A stretch of 64,000 nt of DNA, taken from assembly GCA_001797675.1 (NCBI GenBank), contig MGQB01000001.1:321531-385530 (forward strand), read 5' to 3'. The stretch comes from Deltaproteobacteria bacterium RBG_13_43_22. GTDB taxonomy: Bacteria > Desulfobacterota > RBG-13-43-22. Every line of letters starts with the position of its first letter. Within the stretch, counting starts at the first letter, position 1. The notes beneath the pieces were generated by a model that saw nothing but the letters and a program-made list of their open reading frames with translations, did no database searches and was not told the DNA's origin. Made by a program: the position numbers and the translations under genes. Below, piece after piece: positions 18,716 to 47,670 of the stretch.

Positions 18716-18982
18716 TATCAAGGGGTTTACTCTAAGTCAATCCCAAAATCGGCCCATCCTGCAGCCGGTTTACGATTTTCCGAAAACCTGGATGTTTTGA
18801 ACCGTTCGGTAGAGTGGATCGCCGATGACCTTGATCCCGGATTTCTTATTTTTTCATTGACTCCGGTCCCTGATCCGATTAAATTTATTTCCTTCTCAAA
18901 AGAAACGTTATCACCTATTTCAAGAGGGTTATCAAAGGATACCGTTAGACTTCAGAAGAATTTGTATTAAAGGGACGTTTAT

Positions 18983-22112: not shown

Positions 22113-22634
22113 ATGATTTTATCCGGATTGGAAATTTGTTCAAAAATCGGCAAAGAAATTATTATTGACCCCTTTGACCGGGCCAAAGTCAATCCGAACA
22201 GCTACAACCTGTCCTTACATAATGAATTGATCACCTATACCGATTTTCCTTTGGATATGAAAAGAGAGAATCCTTTTACCGAGATCACCATACCGGAAGA
22301 TGGATTAGTGTTGGTGCCTAATCGTTTATATCTGGGAAGGACCGTGGAATATACGGAAACCCACGGTTATGTCCCCATGTTGGAAGGTCGATCTTCCATT
22401 GGGCGGCTCGGTATTTTTGTGCACGTTACCGCCGGATTCGGCGATGTCGGATTTAAAGGGTATTGGACCCTGGAAATTTTTTGCGTTCAACCGGTCCGAA
22501 TCTATACGGGGGTCGAGGTCTGCCAGATTTATTACCACACCATCGAAGGGCCGTATGAACCCTATTCAAGCCGGAAGTACCAGAACAACCGGGGCATTCA
22601 ACCCAGTTTTCTGTTTAAGGATTTTAAAAAATAG
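22113..22634 (+). CDS. dcd: dCTP deaminase
   Basis: 173 aa protein with C-terminal ICQIYYHTIEG...YSSRKYQNNRGIQPS typical of Dcd. Confidence 0.9.
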   Translation: MILSGLEICSKIGKEIIIDPFDRAKVNPNSYNLSLHNELITYTDFPLDMKRENPFTEITIPEDGLVLVPNRLYLGRTVEYTETHGYVPMLEGRSSIGRLGIFVHVTAGFGDVGFKGYWTLEIFCVQPVRIYTGVEVCQIYYHTIEGPYEPYSSRKYQNNRGIQPSFLFKDFKK

Positions 22635-22661
22635 GATCAAACCGGTCAAAAGGATATTTCA

Positions 22662-22716
22662 AATGTGATTAGAATTCAATTTAAAGGCCCAAAGCTTGCT
22701 GCCCAGGAAGTTACTT
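22662..22716 (-). pseudogene. 3'-terminal remnant (last ~17 codons) of a gtrA-like gene
   Basis: Reverse strand reads LSNFLGSKLWAFKLNSNHI*. This matches the C-terminus of the intact GtrA-like gene at 25790..26263 and is part of the 22517..22716 duplicated junction. Confidence 0.5.
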
Positions 22717-23400
22717 AATAAATGCGGTCTATAGGATGCAGAGGGAGCAGTTCGTCCAAACTTTGGAAGTCTGCCTCTTCTTTTCCCCTTATCCCCTTCT
22801 ATTTGTAAAGTCCAGACCTGCAAAGTCCTATTTTTCTCCTTGACCTTGCTTTTTTCTTTCTTTATATTCTTTCCATCAAAAAGCAAATTCTATCAAATCA
22901 AATATCGGAACGTACGATTCTTCCAAAAAAATTATAGAAAAATCAGATTGTTTCACATTAATCGGAAAAGATTCCAATGCCTGACAGGAAATCCTGCTGC
23001 TAAAAGAGGAATTCCCGGTTCCGGCGCTCATCCCTATTCCTATTTTATTGCAATTATTACTTAAAGTTATGATCAAGCAGGCAATTGGCTGTCAACGTTT
23101 TTATCATTGGGTGAACCCGTTCCGCATTCCGGGTTTAAACTGAAAAAACCCTGAGATAGGAGGAGACCATATGTTCGACCTGATGTCATGGAAAAAAAGA
23201 GACCCCAGAGCCTCGCCCGTTTTCGGGGGGAACTCGACAACCGGTTCAATTAAGAGGACCGATAATCATTACAGCAAGAAGATTTATCGATTGAGCTCCG
23301 GCTTAAATCCGATTTTTACCAGACGAGAGGTATAAATCTCGACGGGAAAGAGGTGACAGCCGGCAGGTGATCATCAACCATTTTGCAAAGGAGGATTAAA

Positions 23401-25155
23401 ATGGCAGAGACCAAACCTCAACCCACCTCAGACGACATCGTTGTCGACCAAGCTAAGGGAGACATTTCCGATTTGTGGAAAAAAGAGGACTACTGGGCCA
23501 TATGGCTCGGTTTTCTAATTCTGGCTGTGGGTCTTTTGATTTTTCTTCCGCGGCCGCCTGCAAAAATGGATGAGCAGTTCGCCAAATACAATGCCGCCAT
23601 GAAAGAGGAAGCGGCTAAAGCCCCTTTTAAAACCGTCGCTTGGCATGAAGCTTCCATGGCTAAAAAAAAGATTCGGGTCAGCAACGAAGGGTATGCAAAA
23701 AACATTAAAAATTTTCTGGCTGCGCCGGATCGATGGAAAGCCAACCCCGTCGATTCTCTGTATCGGAGCAAGGAAGCGGCCGATGCCATGAACGCCAAGG
23801 CGTTGCCCGGTTTTGAAAAAACAAAGGCAGCGGCAGGGGCGGCCCTTGCGTCGGCAAAAGCGGCTGAAAAGGATGCTGCAGATGCAGGTTTCAAAGACAA
23901 TGATCGAAATGAGAAGGCGAAGGAAAGCATTGCCGGATGGTTGAAAGCCGATCAGGCAGCTTCCAAAGCCAAGGCCAAAACAGCGAACAAGCCTTACAAC
24001 CGGATTCCGTATCTTATCGGCATTTCGATTATACTGGCGGTGCTGTTCGGCATCGGGAGTTCCATCATGGGAAATTCCTTTACAGCGTTCGTGAAAGGCT
24101 TCTTCTTTGTTTTCTTTCTGGCTGTTTTGGCCTACATGGCGGAAATGCAGGAAACTATCCGGTACTACGGGTTCGGGTTTCCGCTATGGGCCATCGTCTT
24201 CGGAATGCTGATCAGCAATACCATCGGTACGCCTAAATGGATCAAACCCGCCGTACAGACCGAATACTACATCAAAACCGGTCTGGTCCTGCTGGGGGCG
24301 GAGGTTCTATTCGGAAAAATTCTCGACATCGGCATCCCGGGCATCTTCGTGGCCTGGGTGGTCACCCCTATCGTGCTGATCTGCACATACTGGTTCGGGC
24401 AGCGGGTGTTGAATTTCCCGTCAAAGACGTTGAATATCACCATTTCCGCCGATATGTCGGTCTGCGGGGTGTCGGCAGCCATCGCCACAGCATCCGCTTG
24501 CCGGGCCAAAAAGGAAGAGTTGACCCTGGCCATCGGCCTTTCCATGGTGTTCACAGCCATTATGATGGTGGCCATGCCGGCGTTTATAAAGGCCGTGGGC
24601 ATGAATCACGTTTTGGGCGGAGCCTGGATGGGAGGCACCATCGATTCCACCGGGGCGGTGGCCGCGGCAGGGGCTTTCTTGAGCGACCGGGCACTCTATG
24701 TAGCGGCCACAGTGAAAATGATCCAGAATATTCTCATCGGCATCATCGCATTCGGTGTGGCGGTGTACTGGTGCGCTCGCGTGGAGTGTGCGCCGGGCCA
24801 GCAGGTGAGATGGATGGAGATCTGGTATCGTTTTCCAAAGTTCGTTCTCGGTTTTATAGCGGCCTCGATCATCTTCTCCCTGATCGACGGGGCTATGGCA
24901 AAAGATGCCGCTGCTGCGGTGCTGGATCAGGGTGTGCTGCGCGGTTTCAGCCGGCTGCTGAGGGAATGGTTCTTTGCGCTGGCTTTTACCTCCATCGGCC
25001 TTGCCACCAATTTCAGGGAGCTGGCCAAATATTTTAAAGGGGGCAAGCCGCTCATCCTTTATGTCTGCGGCCAGTCTTTCAACCTGATCCTGACGTTGCT
25101 GGTGGCCTATATCATGTTTTTTATCGTATTTCCTGAGATTACCTCGAGAATCTAA
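23401..25155 (+). CDS. Membrane protein: N-terminal TM plus Ala/Lys-rich extracytoplasmic domain fused to a YeiH/UPF0324 (putative sulfate exporter family) 10-TM domain
   Basis: The ATG at 23401 is preceded by AGGAGG. The C-terminal ~380 aa carry the YeiH-type SVCGVSAAIATASA motif and multiple TM helices. The ORF track's TTG start at 23383 is an upstream extension. Confidence 0.65.
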   Translation: MAETKPQPTSDDIVVDQAKGDISDLWKKEDYWAIWLGFLILAVGLLIFLPRPPAKMDEQFAKYNAAMKEEAAKAPFKTVAWHEASMAKKKIRVSNEGYAKNIKNFLAAPDRWKANPVDSLYRSKEAADAMNAKALPGFEKTKAAAGAALASAKAAEKDAADAGFKDNDRNEKAKESIAGWLKADQAASKAKAKTANKPYNRIPYLIGISIILAVLFGIGSSIMGNSFTAFVKGFFFVFFLAVLAYMAEMQETIRYYGFGFPLWAIVFGMLISNTIGTPKWIKPAVQTEYYIKTGLVLLGAEVLFGKILDIGIPGIFVAWVVTPIVLICTYWFGQRVLNFPSKTLNITISADMSVCGVSAAIATASACRAKKEELTLAIGLSMVFTAIMMVAMPAFIKAVGMNHVLGGAWMGGTIDSTGAVAAAGAFLSDRALYVAATVKMIQNILIGIIAFGVAVYWCARVECAPGQQVRWMEIWYRFPKFVLGFIAASIIFSLIDGAMAKDAAAAVLDQGVLRGFSRLLREWFFALAFTSIGLATNFRELAKYFKGGKPLILYVCGQSFNLILTLLVAYIMFFIVFPEITSRI

Positions 25156-25476
25156 ATGCAAAATACAGATCGACAACCGGACGGGCCCGCGGGCCCGTCC
25201 GCAAAGCTTAAATCCTGGCTTTACTTGCTCATCGGAGTCGCTATTCTGTGGGTGTTCATGCAGTGGGTGGGACCACTTATTTTCCAACTGCCCGGGTTTT
25301 CATCCATGGCGCGGTTGATCAAGGAACAAAACATCCACACCACGGGGTTCTTCTATACCGATATCGAAGAGTTTGCCCTTGCGGAATCGGTTATCAGGGA
25401 CCGGTTGGCCTATGCGCCTCAGATGGAGTCTCCGGCGGGAATTAGGGTGGAAGCCTTTGATAAACAAACCCCTTAA
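25156..25476 (+). CDS. Small membrane protein, translationally coupled to the YeiH-like gene
   Basis: The ATG directly abuts the upstream TAA (TAAATG). One predicted TM helix (LYLLIGVAILWVFMQWVGPLIF). Confidence 0.35.
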   Translation: MQNTDRQPDGPAGPSAKLKSWLYLLIGVAILWVFMQWVGPLIFQLPGFSSMARLIKEQNIHTTGFFYTDIEEFALAESVIRDRLAYAPQMESPAGIRVEAFDKQTP

Positions 25477-25533
25477 GGCCCTTAGCGGCGCACACGGCAT
25501 TTGCTGGTTTTGGTTCAGAGATGACGAGTGGAA

Positions 25534-25745
25534 GTCTGCCAGATTTATTACCACACCATCGAAGGGCCGTATGAACCCTATTGAAGCTCCCTGCACCAAG
25601 GTGCAGGGAATCTTCCAGGCAAGGAAAGGGTTTATTTGTTGTAGTTCGCTCGCTAACCCACGCAGCAAGCTGCGGGGAATGCGCTCGCTATTCCTGTTCA
25701 AGCCGGAAGTACCAGAACAACCGGGGCATTCAACCCAGTCTTCTG
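25534..25745 (+). pseudogene. Duplicated 3' fragment of dcd (last ~25 codons) interrupted by a dispersed repeat element
   Basis: 25534-25582 and 25700-25745 are near-identical to dcd 22517-22612. The 115-bp element is inserted between ...GAACCCTATT and CAAGCCGG. Confidence 0.55.
25581..25700 (+). repeat. Dual-hairpin dispersed repeat element, copy A (short form, ~118 bp)
   Basis: TTGAAGCTCCCTGCACCAAGGTGCAGGG...CCCACGCAGCAAGCTGCGGGG...CCTGTTCA. Near-identical copies at 30137, 35231 and 47551. Confidence 0.7.
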
Positions 25746-25789
25746 AATAAAGATTTAAAAAATAGGGTCTGACCGGGCAAAAGGATATT

Positions 25790-26263
25790 TTAATTATGAT
25801 TAGAATTCAATTTAAAGGCCCAGAGCTTGCTGCCCAGGAAGTTGCTTAAGGTGGTTATAAAAATGGCGGCCAATTGGGCGATGATCTTGTGCCAATGCTG
25901 AAGATCGACCAGAAACCATAAGACGGCTATATTGATTCCGTAGCTGACCAGGGTAACCATCGCATATTTCAGATATTGGTCGCGGATGGCCTTGATTCCC
26001 TGCTCGTGGGTTTTAAAAGTCCAGCGCAGATTCAGGAAAAAATTGCTGGACATGGCCGTTAAAAAAGAGAAGGTGGCTGCCAGCAGATAATGAACGTTCA
26101 GCAGGTAAATGGAGCCTGAATAAACGGCCAGATTAACCAATACCCCGCTGCTGCCCACCAGGGCGAAGCGGACAAACTGATTTCCGGTGTGGCCGCTGGT
26201 AATCAGACTATTGACCATATAGGCCCAATTGAGTTTCTCGGCATATCCCTTGAAGCGACTCAA
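25790..26263 (-). CDS. GtrA-family polysaccharide-synthesis membrane protein
   Basis: 157 aa protein with 4 TM helices and a GtrA-like N-terminus (VRFALVGSSGVLVNLAVY). Confidence 0.7.
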   Translation of the reverse strand: MSRFKGYAEKLNWAYMVNSLITSGHTGNQFVRFALVGSSGVLVNLAVYSGSIYLLNVHYLLAATFSFLTAMSSNFFLNLRWTFKTHEQGIKAIRDQYLKYAMVTLVSYGINIAVLWFLVDLQHWHKIIAQLAAIFITTLSNFLGSKLWAFKLNSNHN

Positions 26264-30136: not shown

Positions 30137-30258
30137 ATTGAAGCTCCCTGCACCAAGGTGCAGGGAATCTTCCAGGCAAGGAAAGGGTTTATTTGTTGTA
30201 GTTCGCTCGCTAACCCACGCAGCAAACTGCGGGGAATGCGCTCGCTATTCCTGTTCAA
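30137..30258 (+). repeat. Dual-hairpin dispersed repeat element, copy B (short form)
   Basis: About 97% identical to copy A. Intergenic between the methyltransferase and wzt. Confidence 0.7.
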
Positions 30259-31492
30259 CTATCCAGCGATGGGGGATTCGATAGATCCCGGCGTCTTTTT
30301 TAGTCGAGCGGACGGCAAAGGACATACAACCGCTTTGATAATCGTAATTGTGGCCGTCGTGGGCATGAACCGCCACATCCAGCAAATAATTCCCTTCTAT
30401 CAAATGAACCTGCTCGAGCTTGATCTTGATTTGACCGGTTTCTTGAAAGGGAGGCAGCACCACCTCATCCAGGTCGGTGTTGGTCCCATAGCAACAGGTC
30501 CCTTTCCCGTCAAAAACACCTACGCCGAAAACGCAATCCAGAGTGGGACGATTAACTTGAAAATCCATCTCCACCAATATATCCTCTCCGTCTTGAAAGA
30601 CGTGTCTTTCCTGACCCCGGCTGTCACGGAGACGGACCCGGATAATTTCGATGTCTCCGTTACCCCACCGGTCTTTGGAAATCAATCTTTCTGTTCCGCT
30701 GGAGGCTGCTTTTGATTGTTCTTCTTTATAGCGTTCGTCATCCCTTCGGGCCACCGCTTGCCGGTAGGCGTCTATCACCTGACGGGGTTCTCCCTGGGCC
30801 TGGATACAACCCGAGTCCAGCCAGAGGGCCTGATCGCAAAACCGTTCCACGGTGGGCAGATCATGGGTCACCAGGACGATCGTCTTCCCCGACTTCTTGA
30901 AAGTCGTCATCCGGTCAATACATTTCCGGGAAAAGGATTCGTCTCCCACGGCCAGGACCTCATCGACCAGCAAAATATCCGGATCGACATTGACGGCCAC
31001 GGAAAACCCCAGGCGGACATACATGCCCGAGGAATAGGTCCGGACCGGTACATCAATAAAAGACTCCAACTCGGCAAAACGAACGATCCGGTCAAACCGT
31101 TTTTCAATTTCTTTGCGGCTCAATCCCAGAATGGTCCCGTTGATAAACACATTCTCCCGGCCGGTGAACTCCGGATGAAATCCGGCTCCTAATTCGATTA
31201 AAGAAGAAACCCGCCCGTTCATCTGAACCGTCCCGGAATCCGGTTTATAAATTCCGGTCATGACCTTGAGGAGTGTGCTTTTACCGGATCCGTTCCGGCC
31301 GATGACCCCCAGACTGATTCCCTGGGAAATTTCCAGATTCAGGTCCTGAAAAACAACCCTGGTTTCTTCTTTGGGTCGGCCCTTTCGTGAAAAGGGATTC
31401 AGGAACAGGGATTTTAAGGTAATGTAGTCGCGGCGCAAGGTGGTTTGTTTAAATCCTTTGGAGATCCCTTTTAAGATGACGGCTGGGGGCAT
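30245..31492 (-). CDS. wzt: O-polysaccharide ABC transporter ATP-binding protein Wzt with C-terminal carbohydrate-binding extension
   Basis: Walker A (GRNGSGKST), LSGG-like and Walker B motifs, plus a ~160 aa C-terminal extension as in Wzt/TagH. Confidence 0.85.
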   Translation of the reverse strand: MPPAVILKGISKGFKQTTLRRDYITLKSLFLNPFSRKGRPKEETRVVFQDLNLEISQGISLGVIGRNGSGKSTLLKVMTGIYKPDSGTVQMNGRVSSLIELGAGFHPEFTGRENVFINGTILGLSRKEIEKRFDRIVRFAELESFIDVPVRTYSSGMYVRLGFSVAVNVDPDILLVDEVLAVGDESFSRKCIDRMTTFKKSGKTIVLVTHDLPTVERFCDQALWLDSGCIQAQGEPRQVIDAYRQAVARRDDERYKEEQSKAASSGTERLISKDRWGNGDIEIIRVRLRDSRGQERHVFQDGEDILVEMDFQVNRPTLDCVFGVGVFDGKGTCCYGTNTDLDEVVLPPFQETGQIKIKLEQVHLIEGNYLLDVAVHAHDGHNYDYQSGCMSFAVRSTKKDAGIYRIPHRWIVEQE

Positions 31493-33878: not shown

Positions 33879-34241
33879 TCAGTCCCCTCGAGCCTTTTCC
33901 ATGGCTTCTTCTCTTTTCTTGCAGTCTATACAGTGGGTAGTGACCGGACGGGCCTTTAAGCGCTGCTCGGAAATATCCTCGCCGCATTTTTCACAGATCC
34001 CAAAGCTCCCATCCTCGATCCGTTCCAGGGCTTCCTCAATCTTTAAAATGAGCTTTCGTTCCCGTCCCCTTATCCTGAGCAGAAAATTACGATCCGATTC
34101 CAGTGTGGCCCGGTCCGTCGGATCAGGGAAATTTTCTTTGGAATCAGTCATTCCACTGACCGTTTTTTGAGCTTCCAGAATCAAGACATTCCTTTGTTCC
34201 TTCAGGAGTTTCTTGAAATAGGCAATTTTTTTGGCGTTCAT
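33879..34241 (-). CDS. dksA: DksA/TraR-family C4 zinc-finger RNA polymerase-binding regulator
   Basis: 120 aa protein with coiled-coil N-terminus and CEKCGEDI...CIDC zinc finger. Confidence 0.8.
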   Translation of the reverse strand: MNAKKIAYFKKLLKEQRNVLILEAQKTVSGMTDSKENFPDPTDRATLESDRNFLLRIRGRERKLILKIEEALERIEDGSFGICEKCGEDISEQRLKARPVTTHCIDCKKREEAMEKARGD

Positions 34242-35230: not shown

Positions 35231-35398
35231 TTGAAGCTCCCTGCACCAAGACTTCGGCGAGCTCAGTCGAGTCGGTGCAGGGAATCTTCCAGGCAAGGAA
35301 AAGGTCTATTTATTGTATTTCGCTCGCTAACCCACGCAGCAAGACTTCGACGAGCTCAGTCGAGACGCTGCGGGGAATGCGCTCGCTACACCTGTTCA
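35231..35398 (+). repeat. Dual-hairpin dispersed repeat element, copy C (long form, ~168 bp: both hairpin loops carry the same ~21-nt extension ACTTCGRCGAGCTCAGTCGAG)
   Basis: Same ends and spacer as copies A, B and D, but each hairpin loop is extended by an almost identical 21-nt palindromic insert. Confidence 0.7.
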
Positions 35399-47550: not shown

Positions 47551-47670
47551 TTGAAGCTCCCTGCACCAAGGTGCAGGGAATCTTCCAGGCAAGGAAAGGG
47601 GTTATTTGTTGTAGTTCGCTCGCTAACCCACGCAGCAAGCTGCGGGGAATGCGCTCGCTATTCCTGTTCA
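47551..47670 (+). repeat. Dual-hairpin dispersed repeat element, copy D (short form)
   Basis: About 98% identical to copy A. Intergenic between hom and the aminotransferase. Confidence 0.7.

What the first reader, a model, noticed from the sequence alone, without database searches (positions are those of the whole stretch)
22517..25849. YeiH-like transporter cassette inserted between dcd and gtrA, flanked by a 200-bp duplication of the junction; one duplicate carries the dispersed element
- 22517-22716 (dcd 3' end plus the last 17 codons of gtrA) is repeated at 25534-25849.
- At the left copy dcd is intact and gtrA is reduced to an 18-aa remnant. At the right copy gtrA is intact and dcd is a fragment.
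- Between the repeats lie a 585-aa YeiH/UPF0324-family membrane protein fused to an Ala/Lys-rich N-terminal domain, a translationally coupled 106-aa membrane protein, and a 54-codon sORF with a strong ribosome-binding site.
- Flanking direct repeats of the target junction are the signature of Campbell-type single-crossover integration of a circular DNA, or of a site-directed insertion. Either way this is a recently acquired cassette.
- The right-hand duplicate additionally contains the 115-bp dual-hairpin element inserted precisely between CCCTATT and CAAGCCGG.
- In the left duplicate that site is empty. This gives a clean empty/filled site pair and shows the element is, or was, mobile.
Basis: seen in the sequence. 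Interest (0 to 1): 0.65.

Follow-up and report, generated by a model that had tools for sequence, protein, structure and literature searches.

The report
Old gene-block insertion flanked by duplicated junction
A 2.8-kb block carrying a conserved membrane-transporter gene pair sits between two diverged 207-base copies of the dcd/gtrA gene junction in an uncultured deltaproteobacterium; it is an old, fixed rearrangement at a recombination-prone spot, and a small mobile hairpin element landed in one copy later.

Summary
A 207-nt segment (22512-22718: dcd 3' end, spacer, gtrA 3' end) recurs at 25528-25849, split there by a 116-nt element (25583-25698). Between the copies lie an AT-rich leader, a non-conserved sORF, a 584-aa PF03601/YeiH-like protein and a conserved 106-aa partner.

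"Recently acquired" is not supported.
- The copies differ at 16 of 207 positions.
- Every conspecific contig that reaches the repeats shows the same arrangement. The four contigs spanning both copies are 99.2-99.95% identical to the window.
- Composition is native-like.
- No recombinase, replicon or att-like feature is present.

No relative has dcd next to gtrA. The sequence after dcd and after gtrA differs in each related lineage examined. The block's first 165 nt also occur beside gtrA in a sister lineage.

My best reading is recombination between two versions of one variable locus. That could be a Campbell-type circle or homology-facilitated illegitimate recombination.

The element inserted later and independently:
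- Its copies are at least 99% identical.
- Insertions are polymorphic between strains.
- The target is CCTATT^CAAG.
- It has no terminal inverted repeats.

Its target and architecture resemble elements moved by HUH transposases (IS91- or IS200/IS605-like). Overall interest is modest.

The parts
22113..22634 (+). Intact dcd (dCTP deaminase), 173 aa
   Evidence: PF22769 E=1.4e-38; TIGR02274 103.7 bits against a cut-off of 92.8. Synteny with L013/L014 ends at its stop codon.
22512..22718 (.). Left copy of the duplicated junction (J): dcd codons ~134-173 plus stop, a 24-nt spacer, and gtrA codons 139-157 plus stop
   Evidence: It has 16 differences from the right copy, and a 90-nt identical run at 22518-22607.
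22659..22718 (-). gtrA 3' remnant (LSNFLGSKLWAFKLNSNHI*)
   Evidence: It shares the lineage-specific TTA/AAC codons and LNSNH tail with the resident gtrA. Its two coding differences are derived relative to all relatives.
22561..22570 (+). Unoccupied element target CCTATT^CAAG inside the functional dcd
   Evidence: This is the only occurrence of the 10-mer in the window.
22719..22734 (.). 16-nt junction or filler sequence between the gtrA remnant and segment H
   Evidence: It has no convincing match in L123 or elsewhere.
22735..22899 (+). Segment H: a non-coding, pyrimidine-rich 165 nt with a promoter-like TTGACC-17-TATATT. It is homologous (77-88%) to a segment about 95 nt downstream of the gtrA stop in sister lineage L123-L127.
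22900..23170 (.). Unique AT-rich non-coding leader (about 36-37% GC)
   Evidence: no match elsewhere; no Rfam match; no Pfam match for its ORFs.
23171..23335 (+). 54-codon sORF with an AGGAGG ribosome-binding site. It is not conserved outside the species.
   Evidence: no tblastn hit in L009-L012; no Pfam.
23401..25155 (+). 584-aa YeiH/PSE-family membrane protein with a conserved ~230-aa N-terminal extension
   Evidence: PF03601 158 bits, residues 232-553. TIGR00698 only 70 bits against a cut-off of 232.6. The 120 best-scoring homologues listed, of ~7970 significant hits, are 571-624 aa long and cover 98-100% of the query.
25156..25476 (+). 106-aa small membrane-protein partner whose start abuts the upstream stop codon
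   Evidence: A homologous 100-108-aa ORF follows the YeiH-like gene in L009-L012, at 36-43% identity. No Pfam family.
25528..25849 (.). Right copy of J, interrupted by the element: a dcd pseudogene fragment, the spacer, and the 3' end of the intact gtrA
   Evidence: The left boundary is ambiguous within 25528-25534.
25583..25698 (+). 116-nt two-hairpin non-autonomous element. Its insertion is polymorphic between strains.
   Evidence: L008 has the allelic empty site. L001-L004, L007, L121 and L130 are filled.
25790..26263 (-). Intact gtrA, the last gene of a polysaccharide cluster with an ABC-transporter export system that extends to about 33811
   Evidence: PF04138. Cluster genes are, and the cluster is conserved in L093-L102, L122-L129.
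30140..30255 (+). Second element copy, inserted in the last codons of wzt and supplying its stop codon
   Evidence: L093 has the orthologous empty site GTTG^AATAA.
47553..47668 (+). Third element copy (intergenic)
35233..35396 (+). Divergent longer element copy with 24-nt extra tips in both hairpins
18914..18924 (+). Empty target CCTATTTCAAG. It is occupied by an element copy in conspecific contigs L002/L003.

Best explanation
What is shown: dcd and gtrA were once convergent neighbours separated by a 24-nt spacer. A 2.8-kb block is now joined into that junction so that 207 nt of it (the J segment) is present on both sides, and both genes remain intact. The block is a 16-nt filler, segment H, an AT-rich leader, the sORF, the YeiH-like gene and its 106-aa partner. 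It carries no mobility genes.

What is inferred: the structure arose by recombination between two versions of the same variable locus from closely related genomes.
- One version had intact dcd next to gtrA.
- The other had the H-plus-transporter block abutting its own dcd fragment and gtrA end.
- The recombination was either a single crossover of a circularised fragment (Campbell-type) or homology-facilitated illegitimate recombination of a linear fragment.
- It left one illegitimate joint at 22718|22719.

Timing: the event predates the diversification of all sampled strains. Since then the non-functional halves of the two copies have decayed.

Function: by family membership, the two genes probably encode a secondary transporter of a sulfur oxyanion such as sulfite or sulfate, plus a single-pass accessory subunit. 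This is untested.

The element: much later, a 116-nt non-autonomous element inserted at the CCTATT^CAAG motif of the pseudogene copy. Its features resemble those of elements moved by a single-strand (HUH-type) transposase.
For: Duplication and gene integrity.

Real and found in every conspecific contig that reaches the repeats: four contigs from four samples span both repeats at 99.2-99.95% identity, with the same inter-copy differences. Other conspecific contigs show one junction or break inside the repeats.

Both copies derive from this lineage:
- The gtrA remnant shares lineage-specific codons and the C-terminal tail with the resident gtrA, and its changes are derived.
- The dcd fragment is far closer to the resident dcd than to L013/L014.

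Variable locus:
- L013 has dcd then convergent pyrF.
- L014's downstream sequence resembles L013's pyrF 3' end by eye, not checked with Pfam.
- A 91%-identical dcd is followed by GT2, LAB_N, a 547-aa gene and pyrF.
- gtrA is followed by a relE-like remnant plus the CoA-binding gene in L094 (the remnant read by eye), by other genes in L095, L096, L122 and L129, and by S-H-PHO4-PhoU-CoA-binding genes in L123.

Segment H, the leftmost conserved part of the block, is next to gtrA in L123-L127 but absent upstream of YeiH-like genes elsewhere.

The YeiH-like/p106 pair is conserved at unrelated loci.

No recombinase or replicon. Native-like composition.

Element inserted later: copies are at least 99% identical and polymorphic between strains.

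YeiH function: PMC12880088.
Against: - No relative shows either postulated parental arrangement: neither an intact dcd-gtrA junction, nor the block abutting a truncated dcd. The two-version model is therefore inferred only from the product and from segment H.
- Sequence to the left of H and to its right differs between L123 and the window. H could be an independently moving or recombinogenic module.
- A 90-nt run of perfect identity inside otherwise ~13% diverged repeat copies (P about 0.001) is not predicted. It needs an extra assumption such as gene conversion.
- A one-step duplicative insertion would be more parsimonious in number of events.
Confidence: 0.5

Rival explanations
1. One-step duplicative insertion. 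The 2.8-kb block was copied or ligated from an unrelated locus into a break at the dcd/gtrA junction. Either nicks staggered 207 nt apart were filled in, or a replication template switch (MMBIR-like) copied the block. Both would create the 207-nt target duplication directly.
For: - A single event keeps both genes intact.
- The gene pair sits at unrelated loci in relatives.
- A 16-nt unmatched filler lies at the left joint.
- No recombinase is needed.
Against: - It does not explain why H, the block's first conserved segment, is linked to gtrA in another lineage and not to YeiH-like genes elsewhere.
- Target duplications of 200 nt are rare in bacteria (general knowledge).
- No second copy of the block is known.
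Confidence: 0.22
2. One reading: recent Campbell-type or site-directed integration of a foreign circular cassette.
For: Direct repeats of the target junction flank the insert. A 90-nt identical core would suffice for RecA-mediated crossover.
Against: - The repeats are 8% diverged, and the divergence is the same in all four conspecific contigs that span both copies.
- Composition and codon usage are native-like.
- There is no integrase, replication or att feature.
- No cassette-free strain was found among about a dozen conspecific contigs.
- A circle must already have carried the junction, so an earlier event is required anyway.
Confidence: 0.1
3. The dispersed hairpin element created the structure by read-through (one-ended, rolling-circle) transposition that dragged the adjacent block along.
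For: - The hairpin-bearing end of the element, which corresponds to terIS if the element is read as IS91-like, faces the block.
- The next perfect nick or target motif in that direction is the empty site in the left copy. So 22568-25698 is bracketed in the correct orientation.
- IS91/IS801 elements mobilise flanking DNA this way (PMC13181058, PMC3189936).
Against: - Timing is wrong. Element copies are 99-100% identical and the insertion here is absent in strain L008, whereas the duplication is 8% diverged and is present in every conspecific contig that reaches it.
- The duplication boundaries (22718, about 25528) are not at the element target.
Confidence: 0.04
4. Assembly artefact of a metagenome-assembled genome.
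For: The source is a metagenome bin (Deltaproteobacteria bacterium RBG_13_43_22). Short contigs break inside the repeats.
Against: Four independent assemblies from different samples and pipelines span both repeats colinearly, and copy-specific SNPs are maintained.
Confidence: 0.02

Closest known systems
Campbell-type (single-crossover) integrants and homology-facilitated illegitimate recombination products
   Same: The insert is bracketed by direct repeats of a chromosomal segment, so the interrupted genes are reconstituted. One joint shows no homology.
   Different: No plasmid, phage or integrase functions are in the insert. The repeats are old and diverged. No empty site or circular form is known. 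Part of the insert (H) is native to the same neighbourhood in a sister lineage.
Variable cell-envelope gene islets between conserved flanking genes, such as O-antigen or capsule loci exchanged by flank recombination (general knowledge)
   Same: The interval between the CoA-binding genes/dcd and the gtrA end of a polysaccharide cluster has different contents in every related lineage sampled.
   Different: Here the exchange left overlapping 207-nt copies of the junction. The inserted genes are a transporter pair, not glycosylation genes.
YeiH / PSE family (PF03601, TIGR00698; TC 2.A.98); Salmonella YeiH is required for sulfite stress resistance (PMC12880088)
   Same: A full-length PF03601 domain at residues 232-553.
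   Different: It scores far below the TIGR00698 cut-off. It carries a conserved ~230-aa N-terminal extension with one predicted transmembrane helix and an Ala/Lys-rich region. It is always paired with a ~100-aa membrane protein. No LysR (YeiE-like) regulator is adjacent.
IS91-family rolling-circle elements and their miniature one-ended derivatives (IS91, IS801; PMC13181058, PMC3189936)
   Same: - No terminal inverted repeats and no clear target duplication.
- Subterminal palindromes at both ends.
- The insertion abuts 5'-CTTG (3 of 5 sites), GTTG or GCTG on the minus strand.
- The opposite end finishes in a similar tetranucleotide (CTTC) directly after a hairpin.
   Different: - Only 116 nt long.
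- The other flank is also conserved (AAT), giving a ~10-nt target CCTATT^CAAG.
- The two hairpins are homologous to each other.
- No Y2 transposase is seen in the window.
- End sequences were not compared with IS91 ends.
IS200/IS605 palindrome-associated transposable elements (PATEs; PMC7290912)
   Same: - Ends-only element with a hairpin near each end.
- No inverted repeats.
- Read on the plus strand, it inserts 3' of a conserved short sequence (…ATT^), and its own right end is similar (…GTT^).
- All five insertions are on one strand.
   Different: The 3' flank is also conserved, which IS200/IS605 does not require. The guide/cleavage-site pairing rule is not evident. No TnpA was found in the window.

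Membership tests
Campbell-type / site-specific integrated element | Direct repeats of the target flank the insert | tested here: met
   207-nt repeats at 22512-22718 and 25528-25849.
Campbell-type / site-specific integrated element | The insert encodes an integrase/recombinase or replicon functions, or has att-like core sites | tested here: not met
   Pfam finds only PF03601 in the block. The leader ORFs, sORF and p106 have no recombinase hits. No terminal repeats were found at the block ends.
Campbell-type / site-specific integrated element | An uninterrupted target (empty site) exists in related genomes | tested here: not met
   No dcd-gtrA neighbours in 80 genome loci, 23 metagenome loci, or the contexts of the closest GtrA and dcd homologues.
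Campbell-type / site-specific integrated element | Excised circular form | not testable with these tools
   This needs reads or PCR.
YeiH / PSE transporter family | PF03601 domain above the gathering score | tested here: met
   158.2 bits against a cut-off of 24.5, profile positions 1-303 of 304.
YeiH / PSE transporter family | TIGR00698 subfamily cut-off | tested here: not met
   70 bits against 232.6. It is a distant, longer subfamily.
YeiH / PSE transporter family | Sulfite/sulfate-related transport activity | not testable with these tools
   Inferred only from Salmonella YeiH (PMC12880088).
dCTP deaminase (left copy) | TIGR02274 equivalog cut-off | tested here: met
   103.7 bits against 92.8.
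IS91-family-derived miniature element | No target-site duplication | tested here: inconclusive
   Three empty/filled pairs fit insertion of 116 nt with no duplication. However, a run of 2-3 T is present on both sides, and the L002 site has one extra T.
IS91-family-derived miniature element | 5'-CTTG or 5'-GTTC tetranucleotide abutting the oriIS end | tested here: met
   Minus-strand flanks are CTTG three times, GTTG once and GCTG once. The rule is taken from PMC13181058.
IS91-family-derived miniature element | Subterminal palindromes at both ends, the ter-side one adjacent to the cleavage site | tested here: met
   A 9-bp stem inside a GAAG/CTTC-extended hairpin starts at nt 1-6. A second hairpin lies at nt ~78-104.
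IS91-family-derived miniature element | Cognate Y2 HUH transposase with matching ends in the genome | not testable with these tools
   None among the ORFs flanking the copies. The rest of the genome was not available.
IS200/IS605 PATE | No terminal inverted repeats; a hairpin at each end; insertion 3' of a conserved 4-5-nt sequence | tested here: met
   The ends GAAGCTCCC… and …CTATTCCTGTT are not inverted repeats. All sites are preceded by ATT (CCTATT in two of them).
IS200/IS605 PATE | Only the 5' flank is specified | tested here: not met
   The 3' flank is CA(A/G)(G/C) in all five sites, and it is present in the empty sites.
Classical (DDE-type) MITE | Terminal inverted repeats and a fixed-length target duplication | tested here: not met
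   No inverted repeats at the termini. There is no consistent duplication.

The most novel reading that the evidence does not exclude
The 116-nt element would be a previously undescribed family of miniature single-strand (HUH-type, IS91-like) transposons with an unusually long ~10-nt target, CCTATT^CAAG. As it now sits, its replication-start end and the perfect empty target in the left repeat bracket the whole transporter block (22568-25698) in the correct orientation. The block could therefore now be mobilisable by read-through rolling-circle transposition. The 90-nt identical core centred on the target would then be a gene-conversion scar of element activity.
Probability: 0.12. Interest if true: 0.6.

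Novelty: new member of a known kind. Interest (0 to 1): 0.3.

Why it matters
The rearrangement itself is an ordinary, if neatly documented, example of how a gene module without its own mobility genes gets lodged between two intact genes. It happened at a locus that is remodelled in every related lineage.

It cautions against reading long flanking repeats as evidence of recent mobile-element integration.

The more useful by-product is the small hairpin element. It has three empty/filled site pairs, a long specific target and between-strain polymorphism. That makes it a tractable candidate for a new non-autonomous single-strand transposon family in uncultured Desulfobacterota.

The widespread ~585-aa YeiH-like protein and its small partner form an uncharacterised transporter pair. 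It is worth noting now that enterobacterial YeiH has been tied to sulfite resistance.

Tried and rejected
- **Rfam.** Searches at gathering threshold over the whole window and at E<=1 over 22400-25900 found nothing relevant: two tRNAs elsewhere and one chance miRNA hit.
- **Promoter and terminator scan.** Counts were at background level.
The YeiH-like gene has GC3 0.643 against a window mean of 0.578 (sd 0.048). Its codon distance is slightly high but typical of membrane proteins. There is no foreign signature.
- **Recombinase remnants.** Pfam on all ORFs in the leader and on the N-terminal domain gave no hits.
- **Cassette-free conspecific strain.** Exact-protein look-ups for dcd, two GtrA start variants, and 99% and 97% GtrA variants returned only contigs that carry the block or break within the repeats.
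- **Relatives with dcd adjacent to gtrA.** Searched through a genome scan with dcd, a metagenome scan with the 773-aa glycosyltransferase, and the contexts of the closest GtrA and dcd homologues. None was found.
- **Homology of the leader and tail to other loci.** Only segment H matched, in L123-L127.
- **Synteny between the window and other YeiH-like loci.** None.
- **Element-driven origin of the duplication.** Rejected on timing (see rivals).
- **Tandem duplication followed by deletions.** Considered and rejected because it needs more events and predicts a gtrA139|dcd134 joint that is not present.
- **Transposase genes next to element copies.** None.

Full report
**1. Observation**

Positions 22512-22718 recur at 25528-25849. 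In the right copy a 116-nt insertion occupies 25583-25698. With the insertion removed, the copies differ at 15 substitutions and 1 indel in 207 columns, about 92% identity.

The segment, called J here, has three parts:
- the last ~40 codons of dcd;
- a 24-nt spacer;
- the last 19 codons plus stop of gtrA on the opposite strand.

At the left copy dcd is complete (173 aa; PF22769; TIGR02274 above its cut-off) and gtrA is a stub. At the right copy gtrA is complete (PF04138) and dcd is a frameshifted fragment split by the element.

The large protein has 584 residues, not 585, and the gtrA stub has 19 codons.

**2. Contents of the 2809 nt between the copies (22719-25527)**

- A 16-nt stretch without matches.
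- A 165-nt pyrimidine-rich segment, H (22735-22899), containing a promoter-like TTGACC-17-TATATT.
- 271 nt of unique AT-rich sequence (36-37% GC over H and this stretch).
- A 54-codon sORF with an AGGAGG ribosome-binding site.
- A 584-aa membrane protein with a PF03601 domain at residues 232-553. It scores 158 bits there, but only 70 bits against the TIGR00698 cut-off of 232.6.
- A 106-aa ORF whose ATG abuts the upstream TAA.

The long architecture is not a local fusion. The 120 best homologues are all 571-624 aa, cover 98-100% of the query, and are 66-81% identical, out of about 7970 significant hits.

At 79-81% identity (L009-L012) the gene is again followed by a 100-108-aa ORF, homologous to the 106-aa one at 36-43%. 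The sORF and leader are not conserved there, and the genomic neighbourhoods are unrelated.

The block contains no recombinase, replication or att-like feature and no Rfam match.

**3. Real, and found in every conspecific contig that reaches it**

The sequence comes from Deltaproteobacteria bacterium RBG_13_43_22. Four contigs assembled independently from four samples span both repeats. They are 99.2-99.95% identical to the window and show the same inter-copy differences.

Further conspecific contigs, including strains with 97-99% GtrA, show one junction or break in the repeats. No cassette-free strain was found.

**4. Age**

The gtrA stub shares lineage-specific codons (TTA, AAC) and the LNSNH tail with the resident gtrA. 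Its two coding differences are derived relative to ten related sequences.

The dcd fragment carries derived changes and a 1-nt deletion, judged against L013/L014.

So both copies stem from this lineage, and their non-functional halves have decayed by several percent. Strains differ by only 0.05-0.8%.

GC3 and codon usage of the two genes are within the range of the window. "Recently acquired" is therefore not supported.

**5. Relatives: a variable locus**

No sampled relative has dcd next to gtrA.

What follows dcd:
- L013 (dcd 87% aa, about 81% nt) is syntenic upstream through the dcd stop, then has convergent pyrF.
- L014 shows the same upstream synteny. Its downstream sequence resembles the L013 pyrF end by eye, not checked with Pfam.
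- The closest dcd (91%) is followed by GT2, LAB_N, a 547-aa gene and then pyrF.

What follows gtrA (the Wzm-Wzt-methyltransferase-glycosyltransferase-GtrA cluster itself is conserved):
- L094: a relE-like remnant (my reading, not checked with Pfam), then the CoA-binding gene.
- L095, L096 and L129: unrelated genes.
- L122 and L123: a 95-nt segment S.
- L123-L127: S-H-PHO4-PhoU-CoA-binding genes.

The interval between the CoA-binding genes/dcd and the gtrA end is thus remodelled in every lineage.

**6. Segment H**

H is the first conserved part of the block. It is 77-88% identical to a segment lying about 95 nt beyond the gtrA stop in L123-L127. It is absent from all other loci, including the regions upstream of other YeiH-like genes.

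In the window it lies 16 nt from the broken end of the gtrA stub. Sequence on each side of H differs between the two lineages.

This links part of the "cassette" to the gtrA neighbourhood itself, rather than to the transporter genes. It argues against a self-contained foreign cassette.

**7. Mechanism (inference)**

Any J-X-J structure can be written as insertion of a circularly permuted X+J at any point in J. The product alone therefore cannot identify the route.

A homologous route needs DNA that already joined the block to a dcd fragment and gtrA end. That route could be Campbell crossover of a circle, or homology-facilitated illegitimate recombination of a linear fragment anchored in the polysaccharide cluster or the CoA-binding genes.

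Such a second version of the locus is plausible given the variability above and the H-gtrA linkage. This model has one illegitimate joint at 22718|22719 and an older breakpoint in dcd at about 25528. I rate this class at about 0.5.

A one-step duplicative insertion (staggered break or template switch) gets about 0.2.

One feature remains unexplained. Ninety consecutive identical nucleotides (22518-22607) sit within otherwise ~13% diverged repeat copies, and the run is roughly centred on the element's target (P about 0.001 under uniform placement). Gene conversion is the simplest guess.

**8. The dispersed element**

It has four copies in the window, all on the plus strand. Three are 116 nt and at least 99% identical. 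The fourth is a longer, older variant with 24-nt extra tips in both hairpins. That variant shows that the two hairpins are homologous units.

There are now three proper empty/filled pairs:
- Conspecific L008 has the right-hand repeat copy, carrying all its diagnostic alleles, without the element: CCCTATT|CAAGCC.
- L002/L003 carry a copy at CACCTATTT|CAAGAGG, where the window (18914) and L001 are empty.
- The copy at 30140-30255 sits in the last codons of wzt and supplies its stop codon. The closest relative, L093, has the uninterrupted …GTTG^AATAA.

The two polymorphic sites share CCTATT(T)CAAG. CCTATTCAAG occurs once in the 64 kb; CCTATTTCAAG occurs at the site that is filled in L002/L003 and once more on the minus strand, at 34212.

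The element has no terminal inverted repeats and no consistent duplication, although a run of 2-3 T is ambiguous and the L002 site has one extra T.

Read on the minus strand, every copy is (C/G)(T/C)TG^AACAGG…GAGCTTC^AAT. This matches the IS91-family rule:
- a 5'-CTTG or GTTC target next to oriIS;
- a similar tetranucleotide at terIS;
- subterminal palindromes;
- no duplication (PMC13181058; the miniature one-ended IS801 derivatives are described in PMC3189936).

Read on the plus strand, it also fits IS200/IS605 PATE logic (PMC7290912), except that the 3' flank is conserved too.

No transposase gene is in the window next to the copies. A degenerate half copy exists in L097.

Element copies are near-identical and polymorphic, while the J duplication is old and present in every conspecific contig that reaches it. 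The element therefore arrived later and did not create the structure. It occupies the pseudogene copy, and the same motif inside the functional dcd remains empty. That pattern is what selection would produce.

**9. Function of the genes (inference)**

PF03601/PSE proteins are secondary transporters. Salmonella YeiH is needed for sulfite stress resistance (PMC12880088).

The long subfamily and its ~100-aa partner are uncharacterised. A sulfur-oxyanion export role is a reasonable but untested guess.

**10. Verdict**

The structure is right. Recency and the "mobile cassette" reading are not supported, and the Campbell route is unproven.
- The rearrangement is an ordinary kind of event at a recombination-prone locus.
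- The hairpin element is a new member of the HUH-type miniature elements, with good evidence of recent mobility.
- Overall interest is about 0.3.

Noticed in passing
window 30140-30255 (wzt 30245-31492, minus strand): An element copy is inserted in the penultimate codon of wzt. Wzt now ends …RWIVEQE*, with QE* encoded by the element. L093 has the uninterrupted …RWIVE* (GTTG^AATAA).
   Followed up: yes
window 35233-35396: This longer element variant has nearly identical 24-nt insertions (GACTTCGRCGAGCTCAGTCGAGWC) at the CAA|G loop of both hairpins. Either the short form lost both tips or a mini-insertion hit both loops. Both loops read CAAG, which matches the 3' half of the element's own target.
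   Followed up: partly
window 18914-18924; L002 6688-6803; L003 6076-6191: Strain-specific element insertion between the MarR-like gene and the first CoA-binding gene. The filled site has one more T than the empty site plus a 116-nt element would predict.
   Followed up: partly
window 22518-22607 versus 25534-25582 plus 25699-25735: A 90-nt perfectly identical core lies within otherwise ~13% diverged repeat copies. It is roughly centred on the element target, which suggests a possible gene-conversion tract.
   Followed up: partly
L094 3195-3478: Between gtrA and the CoA-binding gene lies what reads as a frameshifted relE/parE-type toxin remnant (…YRLRQGRFRTVYSLQDDEVTIWIVKVE…). There is no dcd at this locus in that lineage.
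   Followed up: no
L013 7530-7570 and 7667-7700: Two copies of a ~35-nt palindromic repeat (AAACCGCCATGCCCCG…GGCGTGGCACCAC) lie in the dcd-pyrF spacer of the closest genome. This is a different small repeat family.
   Followed up: no
L097 1360-1424: A degenerate right half of the element (81% identity) lies immediately upstream of the methyltransferase gene of a relative with 70% glycosyltransferase identity. The element family is therefore older than this species.
   Followed up: partly
window 25156-25582: The dcd fragment is in the same reading frame as the 106-aa ORF. It is separated from it by TAA, two codons and a TAG. This is probably coincidence.
   Followed up: no
window 22659-22886 (minus strand): A 75-codon chimeric ORF starts in segment H and reads into the gtrA stub. 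One source calls it a gene (L006). It has no family match and is probably spurious.
   Followed up: partly
contig of P0205 (JGI 3300075153; no DNA available): In the closest dcd relative (91% identity), three envelope-glycosylation-type genes (GT2, LAB_N, a 547-aa gene) lie between dcd and pyrF. This is another variant of the same hotspot.
   Followed up: no
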